This document shows positions 1 through 10,450 of a stretch of DNA of 24,000 nucleotides, in pieces (positions within the stretch are counted from its first letter, which is position 1; the number at the start of each line of letters is the position of its first letter). Source of the stretch: Candidatus Micrarchaeota archaeon (GTDB lineage Archaea > Micrarchaeota > Micrarchaeia > Norongarragalinales > JBBILJ01); assembly GCA_037444945.1 (NCBI GenBank), contig JBBILJ010000001.1:28684-52683 (forward strand), read 5' to 3'. The notes under the pieces were generated by a model. That model was given only the letters and a program-made list of their open reading frames with translations, ran no database searches and was not told the DNA's origin. Made by a program: the position numbers and the translations under genes.

Positions 1-50
1 GTAACTCTGGCGTGGTAACAAACTGCCGCGCTGGTGGGGGTTGGCACAAA

Positions 51-461
51 ATGTTCTTGGACAAATTCCTGCGCAAAACCGGGCTCGGCACGTGGCGTGC
101 GATGCCCGAACCGTCGAGTGAATTCCAGCCAAAAGAAAACGTTGCGGGCATGAAGCGTGCCAACAACGACCTGCTTTGGCGCGTCTCCACTCGCCGCGAA
201 CTCATCGAAAAATACAACGCCACGATGGCGAAGACTTACCAGAACTTCACCCTCTCAATCGTGAGCCTGCTCGGCACACTGTGGACTTTTTCAGCGTACG
301 GCGGCTCCGGCGACCTTACCTTCGCGCTACTCTCCATCGCGGGCGCCTACCTCGTCGTCACCTTCTGGTGCAAAGCCTGGGGCGGCTACGCGGGAGATTG
401 GAGCGACTACGAGAACGACCCGGTGCGCGCCATCGTGCACCCCGAACTTGAATACCGCTAA
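51..461 (+). CDS. small 2-TM membrane protein, paralog 1 (unknown family)
   Basis: ORF 12..461 trimmed to ATG 51. Its MFLDKFL N-terminus mirrors MVLESLFF of the next gene. GTTGGCACA lies directly upstream (40-48), as it does upstream of the next gene (507-515). Two hydrophobic helices (TLSIVSLLGTLWTFSAY, FALLSIAGAYLVVTFW). C-terminal W-x-[DE]-[YF]-E-x-x-P motif shared with the paralog. Confidence 0.6.
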   Translation: MFLDKFLRKTGLGTWRAMPEPSSEFQPKENVAGMKRANNDLLWRVSTRRELIEKYNATMAKTYQNFTLSIVSLLGTLWTFSAYGGSGDLTFALLSIAGAYLVVTFWCKAWGGYAGDWSDYENDPVRAIVHPELEYR

Positions 462-515
462 ACCGAACGAAGGTAGACGAATAACGAAACGAAAAAAATC
501 AGAGGTGTTGGCACA

Positions 516-938
516 ATGGTTTTGGAATCCCTGTTCTTCGACCCGTACGCGTTCGACACGAGCCTGCGCCAGTACGCGCCCGGCTTTAACCTCTTAGGCA
601 AGCCAACCGCGCTACGCGGCGAAGCCGCCATCAAAGAGTGGAAGGACACCGAATTCACCGCCGTCAAAAGCAAGGCGGAAGTCATCGAGGACCACGCGAA
701 AGTCATGCGAGGCGTCTACCAACTCGTCTCCAAAGCAATTCTCGCTGGCTTAGTGGGACTTTACTGCCTCTACACGCTCCTCACCGGTTTTGGCAGTCAG
801 CTCTACGTCCTCGGCGCCATGATTGGCTTCAGCTACGCCGGATACGCGTGGTGGGCCTCCAGCGCCAAGTACTCCAACTGGCAAGAATTCGAGCACCGCC
901 CCCTCTTCGTCCCCCTCGAAGACATCAGCGCCTACTAA
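516..938 (+). CDS. small 2-TM membrane protein, paralog 2 (unknown family)
   Basis: 140-aa ORF with GAGGTG SD at 501-506. Same layout as the gene at 51: ~75-aa soluble N-terminus, two TM helices, and a C-terminal NWQEFEHRP motif (DWSDYENDP in paralog 1). Confidence 0.65.
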   Translation: MVLESLFFDPYAFDTSLRQYAPGFNLLGKPTALRGEAAIKEWKDTEFTAVKSKAEVIEDHAKVMRGVYQLVSKAILAGLVGLYCLYTLLTGFGSQLYVLGAMIGFSYAGYAWWASSAKYSNWQEFEHRPLFVPLEDISAY

Positions 939-948
939 CCCGTTTCAA

Positions 949-957
949 TTTTTTTTT
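949..957 (+). terminator. oligo-T tract (T9) between membrane-protein pair and swivel-protein pair
   Basis: caaTTTTTTTTTcttt starts 11 nt after the stop at 938. Oligo-T is the archaeal termination signal. No TATA box is visible between it and ATG 1003, so it may act as a partial terminator. Confidence 0.4.
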
Positions 958-1002
958 CTTTCCCCCTGCCGCGTCCCACTCCTTCAATTCCGGGTGATTT
1001 TG

Positions 1003-2505
1003 ATGGTGAATAAAATCGAACTGCGCTGGAAAGCCCTCGCAGAAGAACACGACGTCGCGCCCTACCCGCACCCCGTAGCCTACGTTTACGCGTCCACGAC
1101 ACGCTTTAAGGACCTCGTCGGCAAACCCGAAGCGCCGTGGATCATCGAAAACAAGAAAGGCACCTTCCGCTGGTGCGGCGTCGAATCCACGTGGGTGGAG
1201 AACGCCAAACACGTTCTCACTCTCCTTGAAAATCCAGCGTTCTTTGCCCGAGTAAGCCAGGGGCAGCGCGACAGCGTGCGTGCTTTTCTCGCTCGCGCCC
1301 GCGAAGTGCAGCAAACGGTTTGGCGCGCCGCATCAAACGACGAGCTCGCCACGGGGTACGCGCGCCTCTTCGACGCGTGGATGGAAATGAATGTGTGGGG
1401 ACACGTCGTCCAAGTTATCGACTTTGATCACAATATCTTCACGCAGCAGCTCACGCGTCGCCTCGAGCACCGCATCCGCGAAAGCGGAAGTGGCATTACG
1501 CCCGTAGAAGCCTTCGCTGTCCTCGCGTATCCATCTGAAAAAAGTCAGGTTCAGCAGCAGGAGGAAGACTTTTACGCCCTCCTCACGCTCGCCGCCACGA
1601 GTGGAATCGATTCATCGGTGTTCGAGAAAGCCGTGCAAGCGCACGCGAAGCGCTACGACTGGATGCAGTACCACTACTCGGGACCCACCATCCTTGACGT
1701 CGCCTACTTTCGCTCCCTTGTCGAAAGCGAGTTGAGCCAAGGTGTGAGCGGCGAAGAAAAGCTGCGCGAGATACAGCAACGCCAAGCCTCCCAGCGCGAG
1801 CGTCGCCTCCAACTCATTGACGAACTCGGCCTTGATGAGAAAGACCGCTACTGGTTTGACGTTGCGGGCGCGTTTATGTGCTTTAAGGAAATGCGCAAGG
1901 AAGCCGTCTTCGAAGGCTGCCGCTGTGCGGCCCCCTTCTTTGCCGAACTCGGTCGCCGCCTCGGCGTCACTCCCTGGCTTGCGCAATTCATCGGTCCCCA
2001 CGAAATTCAGGACGCCTTGAACGGCAAGATCTTACGTGCCGAACTCGAAGAACGCGAACGCTTCAGCGTCTACCTCGCCGATGCGAACCAAATTCGCTCC
2101 TTCATCGGCGATGAAGCGAAAGCGTACGCCTCGCGCATTTACTCGCACCAAGCCCAGCTCGACGCCCGCGAAATGCGCGGCAGCCCCGCGTGCGCAGGAA
2201 CCGCGCGCGGCGTCGTTAAACTCGTAGCGAAAGCGGACGACATGGCGAAAATGAACGACGGTGACATCTTGATTTCGCCCGCCACGAACCCCAACCTCGT
2301 CCCCGCCGTGAAGAAAGCCGCTGCAATTCTCACAGACGAGGGCGGTATCACGTGCCATGCCTCGATTGTCTCCCGCGAACTTGGAATTCCCTGCGTTGTG
2401 GGCTTGCGCAGCGTCACGCGTTGGCTCAAAGACGGTGACCTCGTCGAAGTCAACGCCTCGACCGGCATCGTGCGAAAAATAGGTGACACTAATGAACGTG
2501 ACTAA
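1003..2505 (+). CDS. PEP-utilising-enzyme mobile (phosphohistidine swivel) domain protein A, with unrecognised ~400-aa N-terminal region
   Basis: ORF 823..2505 trimmed to ATG 1003 (GGGTGA SD at 992-997). The upstream part overlaps the gene at 516..938. The C-terminal ~100 aa match the swivel domain: GDILISPATNPNLVPAVKKAAAILTDEGGITCHASIVSRELGIPCVVG, with the His codon at 2356-2358. No GGK / VRSS ATP-grasp motifs and no PEP/pyruvate TIM-barrel domain recognised. Confidence 0.8.
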   Translation: MVNKIELRWKALAEEHDVAPYPHPVAYVYASTTRFKDLVGKPEAPWIIENKKGTFRWCGVESTWVENAKHVLTLLENPAFFARVSQGQRDSVRAFLARAREVQQTVWRAASNDELATGYARLFDAWMEMNVWGHVVQVIDFDHNIFTQQLTRRLEHRIRESGSGITPVEAFAVLAYPSEKSQVQQQEEDFYALLTLAATSGIDSSVFEKAVQAHAKRYDWMQYHYSGPTILDVAYFRSLVESELSQGVSGEEKLREIQQRQASQRERRLQLIDELGLDEKDRYWFDVAGAFMCFKEMRKEAVFEGCRCAAPFFAELGRRLGVTPWLAQFIGPHEIQDALNGKILRAELEERERFSVYLADANQIRSFIGDEAKAYASRIYSHQAQLDAREMRGSPACAGTARGVVKLVAKADDMAKMNDGDILISPATNPNLVPAVKKAAAILTDEGGITCHASIVSRELGIPCVVGLRSVTRWLKDGDLVEVNASTGIVRKIGDTNERD

Positions 2506-3976
2506 CTCTTGTCCACACCAGGACTGGGAAGAGCAAGCACGCCGCGGCCGCAACCACGCGATCTTGTTCATTGACGTAGTGGCGCGCGGAGTGAACAGCG
2601 ACCACGTCGGCGAATTCCTGCAAGTCCCCTTTCGCTTCACGCACTACCGACAATTTGCCGCAGCCCGCTGGTTCTTGTCGAGCGAAATAGCTGCGTATGT
2701 TCAACTGCTCAAGGATGAGGAGGCGCACCACCCCGGCTACCTGCTCGGCCTCGCGAACGCGCAATACGCCGTTACAGCAGACGCAGTCGACTGGGCGCAA
2801 ACGCAACTCGGGCGTGATTTTTCGAGCGCGTCCAACGACGAACTCATCGACGTCTTACGAGGATGGGCCAATCGCTTCGAACCCATTTTTGCGGCGTGTT
2901 ACACTTATACCTTCCTCAACCGCTTTTACCCCGACGTTTTAGTCGAAATCGTTTCTCGCCATGAGCCCGACTTCAAACGACAACAAGAAGACCTTCAAGC
3001 TCTCTTTGCGTTAGACGAGCCGTCCGAAACGCGCCAAGAACAAGAATCTATTCTCATTATCGCTCAAGCCGCGTTAGAAACAGGCGGCAACGACAACGAT
3101 GCCCGCATACAGCGATTGATTGAGACCCACGTGCGCCGCTTCGCGCACCTCGGCTTATATTACTTTTACCGCGAGCCGTATACGGCCGCGCAAATTCGCG
3201 AGCGCGTCAACGAACTGCTCGGCAAAGACTTGTCCGCCGAACGCGAAAAAATTAACGCCTCAAAAACATACGTCGACAAGTCGCGCGAAATCATGAATCG
3301 CCTCGGCTTCACGGCCGACGAGCGCCTGGTCGTAGAAACAATCAAGCGATGGGCATTCGTCGCGAACGACTTCGACGAGCAAACCATGCGTATCGTGTAC
3401 TTATTGTGGGATTTTTGGCATGCACTCGCCGACCGCCTCAGCATCTCGTACGCGCAACTCGTCGAAATGACGGTGAGCGAAGTCGAAGGCGCTTTACGCG
3501 CGGGTCGCGTTTCCGAGGAACTCAAGCGCGAGCTTTCTGATCGGTACGAGGACAGCGCGCTTGTACTCGACGAGCACGGCGTCCATGTTTTCGTCGGCGA
3601 ACCCCTTCAAGCGTACTATCGCGAGAACGCGGCAAGAGCGGAATCCTACGAGCATGTGCGCGAGCTGCGCGGCCAGCCCGCCTCTCCGGGCCTAGTAAGA
3701 GGAACGGTGCGCGTGCTCAACAGTATTCACGAACTTCACAAAGTGAAAAAAGGTGACATCCTCGTCGCGGCAGCAACCACGCCGGGGTTTGTGCCCGCGA
3801 TGGAGAAAGCCGCTGCCATCGTCACCAATGAGGGGGGATTGCTCTGCCACGCGGCAATTGTCTCGCGCGAGCTTCAAATCCCGTGCGTGGTCGGCACCAA
3901 AATCGCGACCAAAGCACTCAAAGACGGGGAAACCGTCGAAGTCGACGCGAACAAAGGCATCGTGCACAAGGTGTAA
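2492..3976 (+). CDS. PEP-utilising-enzyme mobile (phosphohistidine swivel) domain protein B (paralog of A)
   Basis: ATG 2492 is preceded by GGTGA (2482-2486). The gene overlaps the previous gene by 14 nt. C-terminus is GDILVAAATTPGFVPAMEKAAAIVTNEGGLLCHAAIVSRELQIPCVVG (His codon 3848-3850). The N-terminal region is colinear with protein A, e.g. an R-G-x-P-A-x-x-G-x-x-R-G-x-V linker before the swivel domain in both. Confidence 0.8.
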   Translation: MNVTNSCPHQDWEEQARRGRNHAILFIDVVARGVNSDHVGEFLQVPFRFTHYRQFAAARWFLSSEIAAYVQLLKDEEAHHPGYLLGLANAQYAVTADAVDWAQTQLGRDFSSASNDELIDVLRGWANRFEPIFAACYTYTFLNRFYPDVLVEIVSRHEPDFKRQQEDLQALFALDEPSETRQEQESILIIAQAALETGGNDNDARIQRLIETHVRRFAHLGLYYFYREPYTAAQIRERVNELLGKDLSAEREKINASKTYVDKSREIMNRLGFTADERLVVETIKRWAFVANDFDEQTMRIVYLLWDFWHALADRLSISYAQLVEMTVSEVEGALRAGRVSEELKRELSDRYEDSALVLDEHGVHVFVGEPLQAYYRENAARAESYEHVRELRGQPASPGLVRGTVRVLNSIHELHKVKKGDILVAAATTPGFVPAMEKAAAIVTNEGGLLCHAAIVSRELQIPCVVGTKIATKALKDGETVEVDANKGIVHKV

Positions 3977-3979
3977 CCT

Positions 3980-4183
3980 ATGGCTTATCGCTGGGAACTC
4001 GCCCTCCTCCTCACCCTCCTAATCGATGACGTGCGGAATGCGTTCTTCGACTGGTTCGGGCACGCGGACGCCGTTACCCTCCTTGCGTTCATCCTCCTCA
4101 TCTACTACGCGAGCCACGCCGACTTTGGCTTCAAACTCCCCGACTTCAAGCTACCCGGACTCAAAGACATCGCGGGGGGCTAA
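3980..4183 (+). CDS. small hydrophobic protein (67 aa), translationally coupled to swivel protein B
   Basis: ATG lies 3 nt after the stop at 3976. Two hydrophobic segments (WELALLLTLLI, VTLLAFILLIYY). C-terminal FKLPDFKLPG mini-repeat. No family recognised. Confidence 0.45.
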   Translation: MAYRWELALLLTLLIDDVRNAFFDWFGHADAVTLLAFILLIYYASHADFGFKLPDFKLPGLKDIAGG

Positions 4184-4249: not shown

Positions 4250-4690
4250 TTATTGGGGGCGTTCGCAGTACGCGCACTCTAATGCTCGCGTGGCGGCATT
4301 CGTGACGCGCAGGCGGCTGGGGATTTTTTCCGCGTTCGAAATGCACTTGGGATTGCTGCACGCCAAGACGCCGACGAGCCACTCTGGGAGAACAATTTTT
4401 TCCTTCTTCACAATCGCGTAGTCGCGAATCGTGCTCACCGACGCGTCCGGGGCCAGAAGCGCCAAGCGACTGGCTTGGGCGGGCGTAAGGAAGCGGTCCG
4501 CGAGCTTAATGAAGTCCTTGCGCCCCAAACGCCGACTCGGCATATTCAAACCCACCGCTACGCGGCCATCAGCTGCATCACTCGCGGCACCCAAAATTTC
4601 GAGGGCGCGTAACCCTGTGCCGGCTGGCATGTGGTCGATGACGGTGCCGTTCGCGATTTTTTCGATGCGGACTTCCTTGGATTCATCCAT
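4250..4690 (-). CDS. pyrI: aspartate carbamoyltransferase regulatory subunit
   Basis: IEKIANGTVIDHMPAG N-terminal motif and a C-terminal Zn-binding pair of Cys motifs (CSNPKCIS ... CAYCE). Lies immediately downstream of pyrB on the same strand. Confidence 0.9.
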   Translation of the reverse strand: MDESKEVRIEKIANGTVIDHMPAGTGLRALEILGAASDAADGRVAVGLNMPSRRLGRKDFIKLADRFLTPAQASRLALLAPDASVSTIRDYAIVKKEKIVLPEWLVGVLACSNPKCISNAEKIPSRLRVTNAATRALECAYCERPQ

Positions 4691-4714
4691 TGCCTTTTTC
4701 GACCACTGAATCGT

Positions 4715-5611
4715 TTAACCGTTCACGAGGATGTCGAGAACCGCCATACGCACGGGCACACCGTTCGCGGCTTGCGCAAAATAACCCGCCTGCGGGAGCA
4801 CGTCCACGTCTGTCGCGATTTCGTCCACGCGTGGCAGTGGGTGCATCACGAGCGCATTCGGCTTGGCGCCTTCGAGGGTTTGCGCACTGAGCAGGTAAGC
4901 GCCACGCACTTTCTCGTACTCCTGCGCGTCTGCGAAGCGCTCTTTTTGGATGCGCGTGCAGTAAATCACGTCACAGTCGTCCACCACCAACTCGGCGCGC
5001 TCCTCAACCGGGTTTTTGGAGGCTCGCACGAATTGTGTCGGCATACGCAGCAAGGGGTGCGAGATGAGTTTGATACGCACGTCGTAGTGATTGAGGGCTT
5101 GCAGCAGCGAGTGCACCGTGCGACCGTACTTGAGGTCTCCAACGATTGCGACGGTCAGGCCGTCAATTTTACCAAAGTGTTTTTGAATTGTGTACAGGTC
5201 GAGCAGCGTCTGCGTGGGGTGCTGATTCGCGCCATCCCCCCCGTTCACCACGGGGTGCGTGGCGACTTCCGCGGCGCGTCGCGCGGAACCCTCCAAAGGG
5301 TGGCGGAGAACGATGGCGTCCGCGTACGCGTCCACCATACGAATTGTGTCGCTCAGCGTCTCCCCTTTTTGCACGCTCGTGCCTTCCGTGCCCGAGAAAC
5401 CGATGACGCGTGCGCCGAGACGCTGCGCTGCCGTCTCGCTCGATAGACGCGTGCGCGTGGAGGGTTCGTAAAAGAGTGACGCGACGACTTTGCCTTGCAG
5501 TGTGCGCGTGTGCCCCGGCGCTTCAAAGCTAGAGGCGCGTTTGAATACGGCGTCGAAGTCGGGGCGCGACAATTCGCGCACTGAAATTAAGTTCCCGCCC
5601 TTCGAAAGCAT
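4715..5611 (-). CDS. pyrB: aspartate carbamoyltransferase catalytic subunit
   Basis: ORF 4715..6085 trimmed to ATG 5611 (MLSKGGNLISVRELSR). The upstream extension overlaps the DUF63 gene. Hallmarks present: FYEPSTRTR, HPTQ, HPLPR. A/T-rich gtatttttaac box lies ~45 nt upstream on the minus strand. Confidence 0.9.
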   Translation of the reverse strand: MLSKGGNLISVRELSRPDFDAVFKRASSFEAPGHTRTLQGKVVASLFYEPSTRTRLSSETAAQRLGARVIGFSGTEGTSVQKGETLSDTIRMVDAYADAIVLRHPLEGSARRAAEVATHPVVNGGDGANQHPTQTLLDLYTIQKHFGKIDGLTVAIVGDLKYGRTVHSLLQALNHYDVRIKLISHPLLRMPTQFVRASKNPVEERAELVVDDCDVIYCTRIQKERFADAQEYEKVRGAYLLSAQTLEGAKPNALVMHPLPRVDEIATDVDVLPQAGYFAQAANGVPVRMAVLDILVNG

Positions 5612-5696
5612 GAGAATCAGGAAGAATTCTCCCCGCGAAGAGTTAAAAATACGCCGATGAGCCCGTCGCGGCGCGAAGGAAAGACTGGGGGAGGCG

Positions 5697-8294: not shown

Positions 8295-8308
8295 CCGCTT
8301 CCCTATTT

Positions 8309-8430
8309 GTGCGTCAGCGGTCATAGGGGAGGGGAGATACCCGATCCCTTCTCGAACTCGGAAGTCAAGCCCTCCTACGATGCTGCAAGTACTGCCGTTA
8401 AAGCGGGAACGCGCGTTGCTGCTGACACTT
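8309..8430 (+). rRNA. rrf: 5S ribosomal RNA (stand-alone, no 16S/23S in window)
   Basis: GCGGTCATAGGGGAGGGGAGATACCCGATCCCTTCTCGAACTCGGAAGTCAAGCCCTCC...AGTACTGCC matches the universal 5S loop B / helix III / loop C core. Terminal helix I: 8311-8321 pairs with 8418-8428. T-runs lie downstream (8466-8469, 8493-8497). Ends are +/- 3 nt. Confidence 0.85.
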
Positions 8431-8527
8431 CTCACAACCCCGTAGCGCGCGCCCTCCACTCGTTCTTTTCGCTCGCTCTCCCTCGCTCAATTTTTGTATC
8501 CTTCCGCTCGCGCGGCGCGTTAAAACG

Positions 8528-8535
8528 TTTTTATA
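8528..8535 (+). promoter_or_regulatory. TATA box (TTTTTATA) for leaderless gene at 8559
   Basis: aaaacgTTTTTATAccc ends 24 nt upstream of ATG 8559, with no SD in between. Confidence 0.5.
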
Positions 8536-8558
8536 CCCACACGCTGTTCCCCTCCATC

Positions 8559-8864
8559 ATGGTGGACGCGAACACGGTGGTTCTCGGCGCCAGTCTCGTC
8601 GCGCTCGGCGCGGCCGCCTGGCACGCACGCGAGCTGCGCGCCCTCGCCGAGGACGTGGAGGCGGGGTATCACCGCGAACTGCGCCGCCTCGTCGCCGCCG
8701 AAGGCGACTTGATGGAAGTGAGTCACGAGCTCGTCTCGCTGCGGCAACTCGCGGCCCGCAAGGCGAGCGTGCGTCAAACTGAAAGCCTCTTTAGCGAGGC
8801 CGTAGAGCGCGTCGCGCACAAACCGCGCGAGCGCGAAAAAGTGCGTGCAACAATCAAACGGTGA
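8559..8864 (+). CDS. small N-terminally anchored coiled-coil protein (101 aa)
   Basis: ORF 8307..8864 trimmed to ATG 8559, because the upstream part overlaps the 5S rRNA. One TM helix (TVVLGASLVALGAAAW) followed by a charged helical region. Confidence 0.5.
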   Translation: MVDANTVVLGASLVALGAAAWHARELRALAEDVEAGYHRELRRLVAAEGDLMEVSHELVSLRQLAARKASVRQTESLFSEAVERVAHKPREREKVRATIKR

Positions 8865-9366: not shown

Positions 9367-9398
9367 GCAAAAGGAGAGGCGAGAACGGGAGAGTTGCC

Positions 9399-9409
9399 CT
9401 TTTTAATTT
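9399..9409 (+). promoter_or_regulatory. TATA box (CTTTTTAATTT) for response-regulator gene
   Basis: Ends 21 nt upstream of ATG 9430, with no SD. Consistent with a leaderless transcript. Confidence 0.45.
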
Positions 9410-9429
9410 CCGTCAGCCCAGGCTCTTTG

Positions 9430-9825
9430 ATGCCCGAAGAACCTCTCGAAAAACGCCCCCGCATCCTTCTTGCCGAAGACGACGACGGCGTCCGCCACGC
9501 GTTCGAACTCAGCCTCGGCCGCCACTATCGCGTTACCGCCTTCCCAGACCATCGTGAACTTCTCAAACACCTCGAGGACGCGGAGAACGCGCGCGACGCG
9601 CGCCTCGTCCTCTCCGACTTGCGCATGCCGGGAACGCGCGACGGCCTCGAACTCGCCGCCGCCCTGCAGCAACGCCACCCCGGCTTGCCGCTGGTGATGA
9701 TGAGTGGGAACTGGACGAAAGCGGAGCGCGACGAGGCGAGCAAGTTGGGTGCGCGCGAAACCCTCGAAAAGCCCATAAACTTGACCGACTTATTCGACGC
9801 AATCGAGCGCCACCGCCGGCGCTAA
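9430..9825 (+). CDS. single-domain CheY-like response regulator receiver
   Basis: All canonical receiver residues are present: LLAEDDD, VLSDLRMPG (phosphoacceptor Asp), VMMSG, LEKP (Lys). There is no output domain. ORF 9394 trimmed to ATG 9430. Confidence 0.85.
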   Translation: MPEEPLEKRPRILLAEDDDGVRHAFELSLGRHYRVTAFPDHRELLKHLEDAENARDARLVLSDLRMPGTRDGLELAAALQQRHPGLPLVMMSGNWTKAERDEASKLGARETLEKPINLTDLFDAIERHRRR

Positions 9826-9853: not shown

Positions 9854-10150
9854 TTAAATGACGCCGAGCTTGCGCCCGATTTTTTCGAAGGCGCTGAGCG
9901 CGAAGTCGAGGTCGTCGCGGGTGAGGTCGGCGTTCATCATGGTGCGGATGCACGCTTTGTCTTTCGCCACCATGGGGAATACGATGGGGAGCGCGAAGAT
10001 GCCGGCACCGAAGAGCTCGTCGCTAAACGCGCGCGCCTTGGCGCTGTCCCCCATGACCGGCGTAATCGGTGTTTCGCTAATCCCCGTGTCGAAGCCCGCG
10101 CTCTTGAGTTCTTTCTTGAAGTAGTTTGTGTTCTCCCACAATTGCTGGAC
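9854..10150 (-). pseudogene. kbl: C-terminal remnant (~95 codons) of 2-amino-3-ketobutyrate CoA ligase
   Basis: VQQLWENTNYFKKELKSAGFDTGISETPITPVMGDSAKARAFSDELFGAGIFALPIVFPMVAKDKACIRTMMNADLTRDDLDFALSAFEKIGRKLGVI aligns by eye to the Kbl C-terminus (RLWANARQFREQM...IIPVMLGD...YPVVPKGQARIRTQMSAAHT...IGKQLGVI). The PLP-Lys region and N-terminal ~300 aa are absent. The rest of ORF 9854..10405 is antisense to the tdh remnant. Confidence 0.8.
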
Positions 10151-10450
10151 GTGTTGCGTCAAGTTTTTCAGGCGTTGCGCCCCGGCGGGCGCGCCTCCAT
10201 CCTCGGCGTCTTCCCTCGCGAAGTCAGTCTCGACGTGACGGATGGCATTGTGTTCAAGGGCGCGACCGTGCACGGCATCAACGGCCGCATCCTCTTCGAC
10301 ACGTGGTATACGGCCGCCGCTTTCCTGCGATCGGGCGCGATTGACTTGCGCAAAATCATTACGCACGAGTACACGGGTCTCGACAAAATTAATGACGCCA
10401 TTCAAACCATGGTGTCCGGCGAGAGCGGAAAAGTCGTCGTGTACCCGTGA
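10145..10450 (+). pseudogene. tdh: C-terminal remnant (~100 codons) of L-threonine 3-dehydrogenase
   Basis: LDVLRQVFQALRPGGRASILGVFPREVSLDVTDGIVFKGATVHGINGRILFDTWYTAAAFLRSGAIDLRKIITHEYTGLDKINDAIQTMVSGESGKVVV aligns to the Tdh C-terminus (GGRIAMLGI...[29 protein letters not shown]...PIITHRF...GKV). The Zn ligands and GxGxxG NAD motif are absent. No ATG and no promoter. Confidence 0.8.

What the first reader, a model, noticed from the sequence alone, without database searches (positions are those of the whole stretch)
51..4183. Five-gene cassette: duplicated 2-TM proteins, duplicated 'orphan' phosphohistidine-swivel proteins and a mini membrane protein
Five co-directional genes are packed with 3-65 nt gaps or overlaps. 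Genes 1 and 2 are paralogs. They share a soluble N-terminus (MFLDKFL / MVLESLFF), two TM helices, a C-terminal W-x-[DE]-[YF]-E-x-x-P motif, and even the same GTTGGCACA element just before the ATG (40-48 and 507-515). Genes 3 and 4 are also paralogs (500 and 494 aa). Their only recognisable part is the ~100-aa swivel domain of PEP synthase / PPDK / PTS enzyme I, with the catalytic His in T-[DN]-E-GG-x-x-C-H-A. The preceding ~400 aa show none of the ATP-grasp motifs (GGK..., VRSS...ED), and there is no PEP/pyruvate TIM-barrel domain. A swivel domain can only shuttle phosphate between two catalytic sites, so these proteins need a partner. Split kinases such as phenylphosphate synthase set a precedent, as do antibiotic kinases such as rifampin phosphotransferase, where a large helical substrate-binding domain precedes the swivel domain. 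The 2+2 duplication linked to membrane proteins suggests two parallel membrane-associated phosphotransfer modules of unknown substrate. I do not recognise this combination as a described system.
Basis: partly seen in the sequence, partly recalled or inferred. Interest (0 to 1): 0.75.

Follow-up and report, generated by a model that had tools for sequence, protein, structure and literature searches.

The report
Split dikinase subunits beside membrane trio
Two adjacent archaeal genes encode the substrate-binding and phosphate-carrier part of a split kinase related to rifampin phosphotransferase; its ATP-binding part is not in the window, three small membrane-protein genes sit beside it, and it is an uncharacterised branch of a known enzyme family, not a new kind of system.

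Summary
Five co-directional genes lie at 51-4183, with 3-64 nt gaps or a 14-nt overlap. Genes 3 and 4 are clear paralogs (31% identity, E 6e-44). Their only Pfam/NCBIfam match is the C-terminal phosphohistidine swivel domain.

The ~385-aa N-terminal domain is not an ATP-grasp. An AlphaFold2 model of gene 4 (pLDDT 88) matches rifampin phosphotransferase (RPH) over its whole length (TM 0.61, E 3e-14). Swivel-only relatives give TM about 0.2. Genes 3 and 4 therefore look like 'H-type' subunits (substrate-binding domain plus swivel) of a split RPH-like small-molecule dikinase, as in HpeHI, CreHI and PpsAB.

The N-domain family has about 4,200 cluster representatives. It forms arrays of 2-5 paralogs. 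A separate ATP-grasp (PPDK_N) gene is adjacent in four related loci, and one relative is a fused RPH-like protein.

The window has no ATP-grasp gene, so the partner must act in trans. This is inferred.

Genes 1, 2 and 5 form a small-membrane-protein trio specific to Micrarchaeota. It is linked to swivel arrays at about 10 loci. It also occurs with no swivel genes in three lineages, so the '2+2 modules' idea fails. The substrate is unknown. I rate this a new variant of a known kind, of moderate interest.

The parts
51..461 (+). g1: 136-aa small membrane protein with a soluble N-terminus, a two-helix hydrophobic hairpin and a conserved C-terminal motif KAWGGYAGxWSDYExDPV (WSDYENDP at nt 399-422)
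   Evidence: ORF. The exact product is in the public collection. Orthologs at 41-56% identity lie at the same position in L003, L004 and L013-L031. No Pfam or NCBIfam family matches.
516..938 (+). g2: 140-aa small membrane protein and distant paralog of g1. Conserved motifs: LR..APGF.RLG.P, KTK.E and W..AAYSN.Q.FE.RP (WQEFEHRP at nt 879-902)
   Evidence: ORF. 32 homologous clusters were found, and every one that carries a name is from Micrarchaeota or Norongarragalinales MAGs. Alignment A7. The AlphaFold2 model has pLDDT 74.7 with a hairpin at H53-89 and H95-126. hhalign against the g1 family gives E 1.5e-5. No informative fold match was found.
1003..2505 (+). g3: 500-aa H-type dikinase subunit. 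It has an N-terminal substrate-binding domain (about res 1-386, nt 1003-2160) and a C-terminal phosphohistidine swivel domain (about res 389-493, nt 2167-2481). The catalytic His452 codon is at 2356-2358
   Evidence: Pfam PF00391, E 2e-23. Family HMM hits for the N-domain (1e-127) and swivel (9e-50). Paralog of g4. Orthologs L3_507, L4_501 and L1_528 share 34-42% identity over the full length. It keeps the family-conserved H214, E315, R319, E334, R351 and G369.
2492..3976 (+). g4: 494-aa H-type dikinase subunit. It has an N-terminal substrate-binding domain (about res 1-388, nt 2492-3655) and a swivel domain (res 389-494, nt 3656-3973). The catalytic His453 codon is at 3848-3850. Its start overlaps the end of g3 by 14 nt
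   Evidence: Pfam PF00391, E 3e-26. AlphaFold2 model: pLDDT 88.2, pTM 0.86; residues 63-353 are all helical. The best Foldseek hits in the PDB are RPH-Lm entries 5FBT, 5FBU and 5HV1, E 3e-14, TMq 0.61. Orthologs share 36-47% identity in L001-L004 and 28-40% in Micrarchaeota MAGs.
3980..4183 (+). g5: 67-aa mini membrane protein with a conserved D-[DE]-V-R motif between hydrophobic segments. It is the third member of the membrane trio. Here it lies after the swivel pair, whereas in relatives it lies between g2 and the swivel genes
   Evidence: ORF. The exact product is in the collection. The g5-family HMM hits the small gene after g2 in L003, L004, L015-L022 and L024-L031.
40..48 (+). GTTGGCACA 9-mer just upstream of the g1 start codon, preceded by the G-rich stretch GGTGGGGG
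   Evidence: Only two exact copies occur in the 24 kb, against 0.1 expected. Sequence. Its function is unknown; it may be a duplicated translation-initiation region.
507..515 (+). Second copy of GTTGGCACA, abutting the g2 start codon and preceded by GAGGTG
949..957 (+). T9 run 11 nt after the g2 stop codon. It may be an archaeal oligo-T termination signal separating g1-g2 from g3-g4-g5
   Evidence: Sequence. The terminator function is inferred from general knowledge of archaeal termination and was not tested.

Best explanation
g3 and g4 are two anciently duplicated 'H-type' subunits of a split small-molecule dikinase related to rifampin phosphotransferase (RPH). Each has a ~385-aa, mostly helical substrate-binding domain with the fold of the RPH rifampin-binding domain, followed by a phosphohistidine swivel domain (His452 in g3, His453 in g4).

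Proposed mechanism, by analogy with RPH, HpeHI and PpsAB. A separate ATP-grasp ('I-type', PPDK_N) subunit, encoded outside this window, binds ATP and loads the swivel histidine. The swivel domain then swings back onto its own N-domain and passes the phosphate to a hydroxyl-bearing small molecule bound there, giving AMP, Pi and phospho-substrate. g3 and g4 belong to different orthologous groups. Their genes are kept adjacent and abutting or overlapping in other genomes, so they probably handle different substrates or work as a heterodimer.

g1, g2 and g5 are a separate small-membrane-protein trio specific to Micrarchaeota. In this lineage the trio is stably syntenic with the dikinase genes. In relatives the cluster also includes a membrane-anchored HAD-like protein. 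This suggests, but does not prove, that the enzyme works at the membrane.

Shown here: domain content, fold, paralogy, family size, synteny. Inferred: the trans-acting ATP-grasp partner, dikinase chemistry, membrane coupling. Unknown: the substrate.
For: - Only the swivel domain is recognised by sequence.
- The g4 model is confident (pLDDT 88.2, pTM 0.86). It matches RPH-Lm over its whole length (E 3e-14, TMq 0.61), while PPDK, EI and pyruvate kinase, which share only the swivel, give TMq 0.15-0.20.
- RPH domain order is ATP-grasp 1-314, RIF-binding domain 327-754, swivel 767-865 (PMC4844700). Family member P0088 (819 aa) is collinear with this: PPDK_N 15-319, N-domain 335-705, swivel 741-811. 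Its ATP-grasp aligns with RPH residues 6-319.
- The NCBIfam RPH models align with g4 from residue 312/324, which is 70-80 aa upstream of the swivel.
- A stand-alone PPDK_N gene lies next to H-type arrays in L001, L002, L005 and L007, the last from a Micrarchaeota MAG.
- HpeHI, CreHI and PpsAB are characterised two-component dikinases with this same split. HpeH and HpeI form no stable complex, so a trans-acting, shared ATP-grasp subunit is plausible (PMC12167813).
- Both g3 and g4 keep the catalytic His motif and the family-conserved polar N-domain residues H213, R315, E330 and R351 (g4 numbering).
- The order g3-type then g4-type, with abutting or overlapping stop and start codons, recurs in L001, L003 and L004.
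- The trio is linked to swivel arrays in the window, L003/L030, L004, L013, L016, L018, L020, L021, L023 and L031. In the window the swivel pair sits inside the trio.
- The HAD-like protein that ends these arrays carries two N-terminal hydrophobic helices in Micrarchaeota.
Against: - No PPDK_N gene lies in the 24-kb window or within 10 kb of any trio-linked array (L018, L021, L030, L031). The ATP-grasp partner of this particular cassette has not been seen.
- The N-domain profile gives no sequence-level hit to RPH, or to HpeH/PpsA-type models, outside the swivel. The link to the rifampin-binding domain is structural, and Foldseek did not report which residues align.
- Only g4 was modelled.
- The trio occurs without any swivel gene in L022 and L024-L029.
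- A T9 run separates g2 from g3, so the five genes may be two transcription units.
- The window lacks the HAD-like gene that ends the arrays in relatives.
Confidence: 0.65

Rival explanations
1. The five genes are not one system. g1-g2-g5 is an autonomous membrane complex of Micrarchaeota with a function of its own, and the dikinase H-subunit genes merely sit beside it in one sub-lineage. The identity of g3 and g4 as dikinase subunits is unchanged under this reading.
For: The trio, in the same gene order, is followed by a MiaB-like radical-SAM gene in a housekeeping context. No swivel, HAD or PPDK_N gene lies within 10 kb in L022 and L024-L029, which represent three lineages. Trio-less H-type arrays are the rule in the Patescibacteria-like loci and in L007-L011. 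A T9 run lies between g2 and g3. The number of swivel genes beside the trio varies from 2 to 5.
Against: The linkage is kept across about 10 loci whose proteins share only 40-56% identity. It also survives a rearrangement: the order is g1-g2-[g3-g4]-g5 in the window and g1-g2-g5-[swivel genes]-HAD elsewhere. The HAD-like protein of these same arrays is itself membrane-anchored.
Confidence: 0.3
2. The cassette works without an ATP-grasp subunit. The H-type proteins move phosphate between phosphorylated and unphosphorylated metabolites through the swivel His. Alternatively, they pass it to the Asp nucleophile of the atypical HAD-like protein or to a receiver domain, forming a His-to-Asp relay at the membrane.
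For: No PPDK_N gene lies near any trio-linked array. HpeH alone catalyses phosphotransfer from 4-phosphoacetophenone to acetovanillone (abstract of PMC12167813). HAD-like genes end nearly every array and occur fused to a swivel domain (L005, 311 aa) or to N-domain plus swivel (P0130). P0083 carries a response-regulator receiver between two units. These HAD-like proteins keep the nucleophile Asp but lack Asp+2. From general knowledge of the HAD superfamily, loss of Asp+2 slows hydrolysis of the aspartyl phosphate.
Against: The window has no HAD-like gene. PPDK_N is adjacent in four trio-less arrays that also carry the HAD-like gene (L001, L005, L007) or a His-phosphatase-like gene (L002), so the HAD-like protein does not replace the ATP-grasp. 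No phosphotransfer from a swivel His to a HAD Asp is known.
Confidence: 0.12
3. g3 and g4 are ordinary, complete PpsA-, PPDK- or EI-type enzymes whose ATP-grasp or PEP-binding domains are merely too divergent to recognise.
For: Their best NCBIfam and PDB sequence hits are labelled PEP synthase.
Against: Those hits cover only about 100 aa of swivel. Pfam finds no PPDK_N or PEP-utilizers_C at E<=1. Residues 63-353 of the model are all helical, unlike the alpha/beta ATP-grasp fold or a TIM barrel. Whole-chain structural similarity is to RPH, not to PPDK or EI. Real stand-alone PPDK_N proteins in related loci score E 1e-98.
Confidence: 0.02
4. The cassette is a PTS-like group-translocation device. 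The membrane trio forms a channel, and the swivel proteins phosphorylate the solute as it enters.
For: A swivel domain of the kind used by PTS enzyme I lies next to small membrane proteins. TrmB-type, nominally sugar-specific, regulators lie divergently upstream in L018, L030 and L003. Both cytoplasmic tails of g1 and g2 carry an invariant acidic-aromatic motif that could serve as a docking site.
Against: No HPr-, EIIA-, EIIB- or EIIC-like parts were found. Hairpin proteins of 136-140 aa make poor transporter candidates, and g2 has no structural match. The trio exists without any swivel genes.
Confidence: 0.05

Closest known systems
Two-component small-molecule dikinases: HpeHI (Rhodococcus), CreHI (Corynebacterium), phenylphosphate synthase PpsAB (Thauera/Aromatoleum)
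   Same: They show the same split. The H/A subunit carries a rifampin-binding-like substrate domain plus a C-terminal swivel His domain. The I/B subunit is a stand-alone ATP-grasp of about 340 aa (PMC12167813). Related loci here carry stand-alone PPDK_N proteins of 311-342 aa beside the H-type genes.
   Different: g3 and g4 are about 500 aa, against about 600-650 aa for HpeH and PpsA. Outside the swivel they show no sequence similarity to the PRK08296/PpsA-type models. The hosts are DPANN archaea and Patescibacteria-like organisms, not aromatic-degrading bacteria. The H-type genes form arrays of 2-5 paralogs per ATP-grasp gene. In this cassette the ATP-grasp gene is not adjacent. No carboxylase genes are nearby. 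The cluster is associated with a membrane trio and an atypical HAD-like protein.
Rifampin phosphotransferase RPH (Listeria monocytogenes; PDB 5FBT, 5FBU, 5HV1) and the wider RPH-like dikinase family
   Same: It is the best structural match to the g4 model over the whole chain (E 3e-14, TMq 0.61). The order of substrate domain then swivel is the same. The phosphocarrier motif T-x-E-G-G-x-x-x-H is shared. A fused relative, P0088, reproduces the full three-domain RPH order.
   Different: RPH is a single chain of about 865 aa with its own ATP-grasp domain. The N-domain profile shows no detectable sequence similarity to the rifampin-binding domain. The substrate is almost certainly not rifampin.
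Prodiginine-condensing enzymes PigC, RedH and HapC
   Same: The NCBIfam models for PigC and RedH hit the swivel region of g3 and g4 (E 1e-14 to 8e-21). They belong to the same RPH-like architecture of ATP-grasp, central domain and swivel.
   Different: They are single-chain enzymes of about 880 aa that use phosphorylation to drive a condensation. Only the swivel region aligns.
PEP synthase, PPDK and PTS enzyme I
   Same: The swivel phosphohistidine domain (PF00391) is homologous.
   Different: g3 and g4 have no PPDK_N domain, no PEP-utilizers_C TIM barrel and no EIN helical subdomain.

Membership tests
RPH-like small-molecule dikinases (including the two-component HpeHI/CreHI/PpsAB subfamily) | C-terminal swivel phosphohistidine domain with the conserved T/S-x-x-G-G-x-x-x-H motif | tested here: met
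   PF00391 hits at E 2e-23 (g3) and 3e-26 (g4). The motifs are TDEGGITCH (H452) and TNEGGLLCH (H453). The His is conserved in 98% of 112 family members.
RPH-like small-molecule dikinases (including the two-component HpeHI/CreHI/PpsAB subfamily) | Second-substrate domain with the fold of the RPH rifampin-binding domain, placed directly N-terminal to the swivel | tested here: met
   The g4 AlphaFold2 model (pLDDT 88.2) matches RPH-Lm at E 3e-14 and TMq 0.61, against about 0.2 for swivel-only relatives. g3 is included by homology to g4 and was not modelled. Caveat: Foldseek did not print the residue ranges, and there is no sequence-level hit.
RPH-like small-molecule dikinases (including the two-component HpeHI/CreHI/PpsAB subfamily) | ATP-grasp (PPDK_N) domain, either fused or as a separate subunit encoded next to the H subunit | tested here: inconclusive
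   Absent from the 24-kb window and from within 10 kb of the trio-linked arrays L018, L021, L030 and L031. Present next to homologous arrays in L001, L002, L005 and L007, and fused in P0088. The rest of the source genome could not be read.
RPH-like small-molecule dikinases (including the two-component HpeHI/CreHI/PpsAB subfamily) | Dikinase chemistry: ATP + substrate + H2O gives AMP + Pi + phospho-substrate via phospho-His | not testable with these tools
   Needs biochemistry.
HpeH/CreH/PpsA orthologous group (NCBIfam PRK08296-type models) | Full-length sequence similarity (about 45% pairwise identity among HpeH, CreH and PpsA) and a score above the model cut-off | tested here: not met
   The PRK08296 sub-models hit only residues 375-493, at 58-114 bits against cut-offs of 578-730.
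PEP synthase / pyruvate phosphate dikinase | Three domains: PPDK_N ATP-grasp, swivel, and the PEP-utilizers_C TIM barrel | tested here: not met
   Only the swivel is found. Scores of 110-134 bits fall far below cut-offs of 598-740. The N-domain is helical.
PTS enzyme I | EIN (swivel-like alpha/beta subdomain plus the HPr-binding helical subdomain) and the C-terminal PEP-binding TIM barrel | tested here: not met
   Only 28-42 bits on the swivel against cut-offs of 342-824. TMq is 0.15 to EI structures.
Any described family for g1, g2 or g5 | A match to a curated protein family or to a solved fold | tested here: not met
   No Pfam or NCBIfam hit at E<=1. The g2 model has no PDB match below E 1.

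The most novel reading that the evidence does not exclude
In DPANN archaea and Patescibacteria, dikinase parts may have been rebuilt into a branched phosphorelay. One ATP-grasp charging subunit would feed a set of 2-5 paralogous proteins, each combining a swivel-His carrier with a substrate-binding domain. These would hand phosphate on to an atypical HAD-like Asp acceptor that lacks Asp+2, is membrane-anchored in Micrarchaeota, and is sometimes fused to the swivel, or to a receiver domain. The whole assembly would sit on the g1-g2-g5 membrane trio. Functionally this would be a PTS-like or His-Asp system for capturing or sensing host-derived metabolites in organisms that lack a PTS.
Probability: 0.1. 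Interest if true: 0.85.

Novelty: new variant of a known kind. Interest (0 to 1): 0.5.

Why it matters
Two-component RPH-like dikinases have so far been characterised only in bacterial catabolism of aromatic compounds. The authors of the HpeHI study expected homologs in other processes (PMC12167813).

This cassette belongs to a large, unannotated branch of that family: about 4,200 representatives at 50% identity clustering. Named members come from genome-reduced episymbionts, Micrarchaeota and Patescibacteria, which keep up to five paralogs in a row.

Organisms with such small genomes rarely keep paralog arrays unless they matter. Possible roles are scavenging of host metabolites, sugar or glycan handling, or inactivation of xenobiotics. 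Identifying the substrates would add to the sparse picture of DPANN and CPR metabolism.

The recurrent, atypical HAD-like partner and the membrane trio are concrete, testable leads.

Tried and rejected
- The word-indexed homolog search found only 6-8 relatives, which made the family look extremely rare. The exhaustive HMM search showed about 4,200 representatives, so rarity was an artefact of that tool.
- I tried to read upstream of window position 1 by exact-protein look-up of g4 and g1. Neither is on record, and the source genome is not among the GTDB representatives scanned.
- The family alignment A1 was too diverse for the locus scan. The g4-orthologue alignment A2 was used instead.
- The N-domain profile searched against PDB sequences gave only spurious hits to a designed repeat protein.
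- The fold search with the g2 model was uninformative, as expected for a helical hairpin.
- The sigma-70 promoter and hairpin-terminator scan found nothing above background, and it does not suit archaea in any case.
- The Rfam scan of the window and six related loci found no riboswitch that could hint at a ligand. It found only a 5S rRNA and tRNAs.
- tblastn with HAD-like and PPDK_N queries against the window was negative.
- The idea that g3/g4 pair one-to-one with g1/g2 was rejected, because the number of swivel genes varies while the trio stays constant.

Full report
**1. The observation**

The window carries five co-directional genes: g1 51-461, g2 516-938, g3 1003-2505, g4 2492-3976 and g5 3980-4183. 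The spacings are 54 nt, 64 nt, a 14-nt overlap and 3 nt. All five products are present with exactly these boundaries in the public protein collection, on one 52,843-bp NCBI contig.

The rest of the window is typically archaeal:
- pyrI and pyrB on the minus strand at 4250-5650;
- a DUF63 protein and a Trm5/TYW2 methyltransferase;
- an RpoF-DUF655-KsgA cluster;
- an NFACT protein and a MacB-type ABC transporter;
- a 5S rRNA at 8313-8427.

**2. g3 and g4 by sequence**

The two are paralogs: 31% identity over residues 168-494, E 6e-44. Pfam recognises only the PEP-utilizers mobile (swivel) domain at the C-terminus. It finds no PPDK_N or PEP-utilizers_C even at E<=1.

NCBIfam models for PEP synthase, RPH, PigC/RedH and the PRK08296 group all hit only the last 100-180 residues, far below their cut-offs. 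PDB sequence hits are likewise limited to the swivel. The phosphocarrier histidines sit in TDEGGITCH (H452, nt 2356-2358) and TNEGGLLCH (H453, nt 3848-3850).

**3. What the N-terminal domain is**

I modelled g4 with AlphaFold2 from a 10-sequence alignment. The model is confident (mean pLDDT 88.2, pTM 0.86) and residues 63-353 are all helical. That rules out a cryptic ATP-grasp domain or TIM barrel.

Foldseek against the PDB puts rifampin phosphotransferase from Listeria first (5FBT, 5FBU, 5HV1; E 3e-14, TM 0.61 normalised to the query). Proteins that share only the swivel (PPDK, enzyme I, pyruvate kinase) reach TM 0.15-0.20. RPH consists of an ATP-grasp (1-314), a rifampin-binding domain (327-754) and a swivel (767-865) (PMC4844700). 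So g4, and g3 by homology, correspond to the last two RPH domains without the first.

This is exactly the split described for the two-component dikinases HpeHI, CreHI and PpsAB. There the H/A subunit carries the substrate domain and swivel, and the I/B subunit is a separate ATP-grasp (PMC12167813).

**4. The family**

The word-indexed search suggested extreme rarity, with 6-8 hits. An exhaustive HMM search with the N-domain alone found far more cluster representatives:

| E-value threshold | Representatives |
|---|---|
| <= 1e-3 | 4,187 |
| <= 1e-10 | 2,518 |
| <= 1e-30 | 270 |

Most are 480-520 aa. Informative exceptions:
- P0088 (819 aa) is a collinear fusion of PPDK_N, N-domain and swivel. 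Its ATP-grasp aligns with RPH residues 6-319.
- P0130 is N-domain + swivel + HAD.
- P0083 has two units with a response-regulator receiver between them.
- Tandem fusions reach 1,500-2,309 aa.

Across 112 members the N-domain keeps a small set of polar residues: H213, R315, E330 and R351 (g4 numbering), with R351 conserved in 99%. Both g3 and g4 retain these four. At a fifth conserved position (Glu in 89% of members) g3 has E315 but this alignment places A311 in g4.

**5. Gene neighbourhoods of the H-type genes**

- L001 (88-kb Logan contig): a 314-aa stand-alone PPDK_N, then five H-type paralogs and a HAD-like gene. The cluster lies next to GH77, transketolase, transaldolase, PGI and 6PGD.
- L002: three H-type genes, a His-phosphatase-like gene and a PPDK_N gene.
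- L005 (Patescibacteria MAG GCA_041645555.1): two H-type genes, a HAD-swivel fusion and a PPDK_N gene.
- L007 (Micrarchaeota MAG): H-type, PPDK_N, HAD-like, H-type.

BLAST relationships show that g3-type and g4-type are distinct orthologous groups. The adjacency of g3-type followed by g4-type, with abutting or overlapping stop and start codons, recurs in L001, L003 and L004. HpeH appears to dimerise and forms no stable complex with HpeI. A g3/g4 heterodimer served in trans by a shared ATP-grasp is therefore a reasonable inference, not a result.

**6. The membrane genes**

g1 and g2 share no BLASTP similarity, but profile methods link them. hhalign gives 79.6% probability and E 1.5e-5. Reciprocal HMM cross-hits recur at many loci. 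The two proteins share a layout: a soluble N-terminus, a helical hairpin (g2 model H53-89 and H95-126) and an invariant cytoplasmic tail motif. I accept them as distant paralogs.

Probing metagenomes with the g1 family and the protein database with the g2 family (32 clusters, all named ones from Micrarchaeota or Norongarragalinales) gave two kinds of locus:
- **(A)** g1-g2-g5, then 2-5 H-type genes, ending where visible in a HAD-like gene. These are L003/L030, L004, L013, L016, L018, L020, L021, L023 and L031.
- **(B)** g1-g2-g5 followed by a MiaB-like radical-SAM gene in a housekeeping context, with no swivel, HAD or PPDK_N gene within 10 kb. These are L022 and L024-L029, three lineages.

So the membrane unit is a trio that includes g5, not a duplicated pair matched to the duplicated kinase genes. 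It can exist on its own.

For functional coupling:
- Linkage persists over considerable divergence.
- In the window the swivel pair sits inside the trio.
- The HAD-like protein of type-A arrays has two N-terminal hydrophobic helices.

Against coupling:
- Type-B loci exist.
- A T9 run follows the g2 stop codon.

**7. The unresolved point**

No type-A locus has a PPDK_N gene within 10 kb. These are the window (24 kb), L018, L021, L030 and L031. The window also lacks the HAD-like gene. I could not read the rest of the source genome.

The most economical reading is an unlinked ATP-grasp subunit, of the kind encoded in the Micrarchaeota locus L007. The alternative is ATP-grasp-independent phosphotransfer, possibly to the HAD-like Asp. 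It is kept as a rival. HpeH alone can shuttle phosphate between substrates. The HAD-like partners have lost Asp+2 while keeping the nucleophile Asp and motifs II-IV.

**8. Substrate**

The substrate is unknown. Weak hints point to carbohydrates. TrmB-type regulators lie divergently upstream in L003, L018 and L030. L001 sits next to GH77 and pentose-phosphate genes. No riboswitch was found.

By family precedent the acceptor should be a hydroxyl or carbonyl oxygen of a small molecule. Known acceptors include rifampin, phenols, benzyl alcohols and a prodiginine precursor.

**9. Verdict**

g3 and g4 are H-type subunits of a split RPH-like dikinase. They belong to a large, uncharacterised clade in DPANN archaea and Patescibacteria that forms paralog arrays. 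g1, g2 and g5 form a lineage-specific membrane trio whose coupling to the kinase is plausible but unproven.

This is a new variant of a known kind, and of moderate interest. The mechanism class is known. The substrate, the multi-paralog logic, the atypical HAD-like partner and the membrane association are open and testable.

Noticed in passing
L001 16040-16663; L003 4852-5460; L005 13444-14379; L007 12529-13122; L018 14022-14606; L021 15676-16168; L030 5928-6536; L031 19177-19776: A HAD-like gene ends nearly every H-type array. It is fused to a swivel domain in L005 and to N-domain plus swivel in P0130. All copies keep the nucleophile Asp and motifs II-IV but replace Asp+2 (FDFNGV, FDCYGL, AFDMGGV, IFDFVGV and similar). 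The Micrarchaeota versions carry an N-terminal extension of about 65 aa with two hydrophobic helices. The window has no such gene.
   Followed up: partly
L022 41-2679; L024 9460-12098; L026 9515-12187; L028 7901-10913: The g1-g2-g5 trio also occurs with no swivel genes. There it is followed by a MiaB-like (UPF0004 + radical SAM) gene among housekeeping genes (RLI, Pelota, RFC, topoisomerase, NFACT, CDC48).
   Followed up: yes
proteins P0016 (1500 aa), P0021 (2309 aa), P0037, P0083 (1103 aa), P0117, P0140: Some family members are tandem fusions of 2-4 units of N-domain plus swivel. P0083 has a response-regulator receiver domain between two units.
   Followed up: partly
L001 11583-13454; proteins P0008 and P0009 (625 aa): One paralog type carries an extra N-terminal segment of about 90 aa that looks like a winged helix-turn-helix, fused to the dikinase H-subunit. 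It was not confirmed with a domain search.
   Followed up: no
L018 9115-9894 (-); L030 785-1552 (-); L003 1-483 (-); L031 16836-17549: TrmB-type transcription regulators lie divergently upstream of the trio in several type-A loci, and an HTH_10 regulator sits inside the L031 array. The corresponding region of the window lies before position 1 and cannot be seen.
   Followed up: partly
window 949-957: A T9 run lies 11 nt after the g2 stop codon. It may be an archaeal oligo-T terminator splitting the cassette into g1-g2 and g3-g4-g5.
   Followed up: no
window 8313-8427 (+): A 5S rRNA gene (Rfam RF00001, 71.8 bits) lies here. The mechanical ORF 8307-8864 that overlaps it is therefore probably not a gene.
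   Followed up: no
L018 14643-14725; L030 6597-6679: A tRNA gene directly follows the HAD-like gene at the end of the array in two related loci. None follows g5 in the window.
   Followed up: no
window 9394-9825 (+) and 9854-10405 (-): A stand-alone response-regulator receiver protein (143 aa) lies about 5 kb downstream of the cassette. The neighbouring 183-aa ORF matches only the C-terminal quarter of class I/II aminotransferases, so it is either a fragment or has a mis-set start.
   Followed up: no
L001 1-5829: The five-paralog array in L001 sits next to genes for transketolase, transaldolase, PGI, 6-phosphogluconate dehydrogenase and a GH77 4-alpha-glucanotransferase. This is a weak hint towards carbohydrate substrates.
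   Followed up: no
L026 1-153: A bona fide three-domain PEP synthase (PPDK_N + swivel + PEP-utilizers_C, 830 aa) is encoded about 10 kb from a swivel-less trio in a Micrarchaeota-type contig. These organisms can therefore have a canonical PpsA as well.
   Followed up: no
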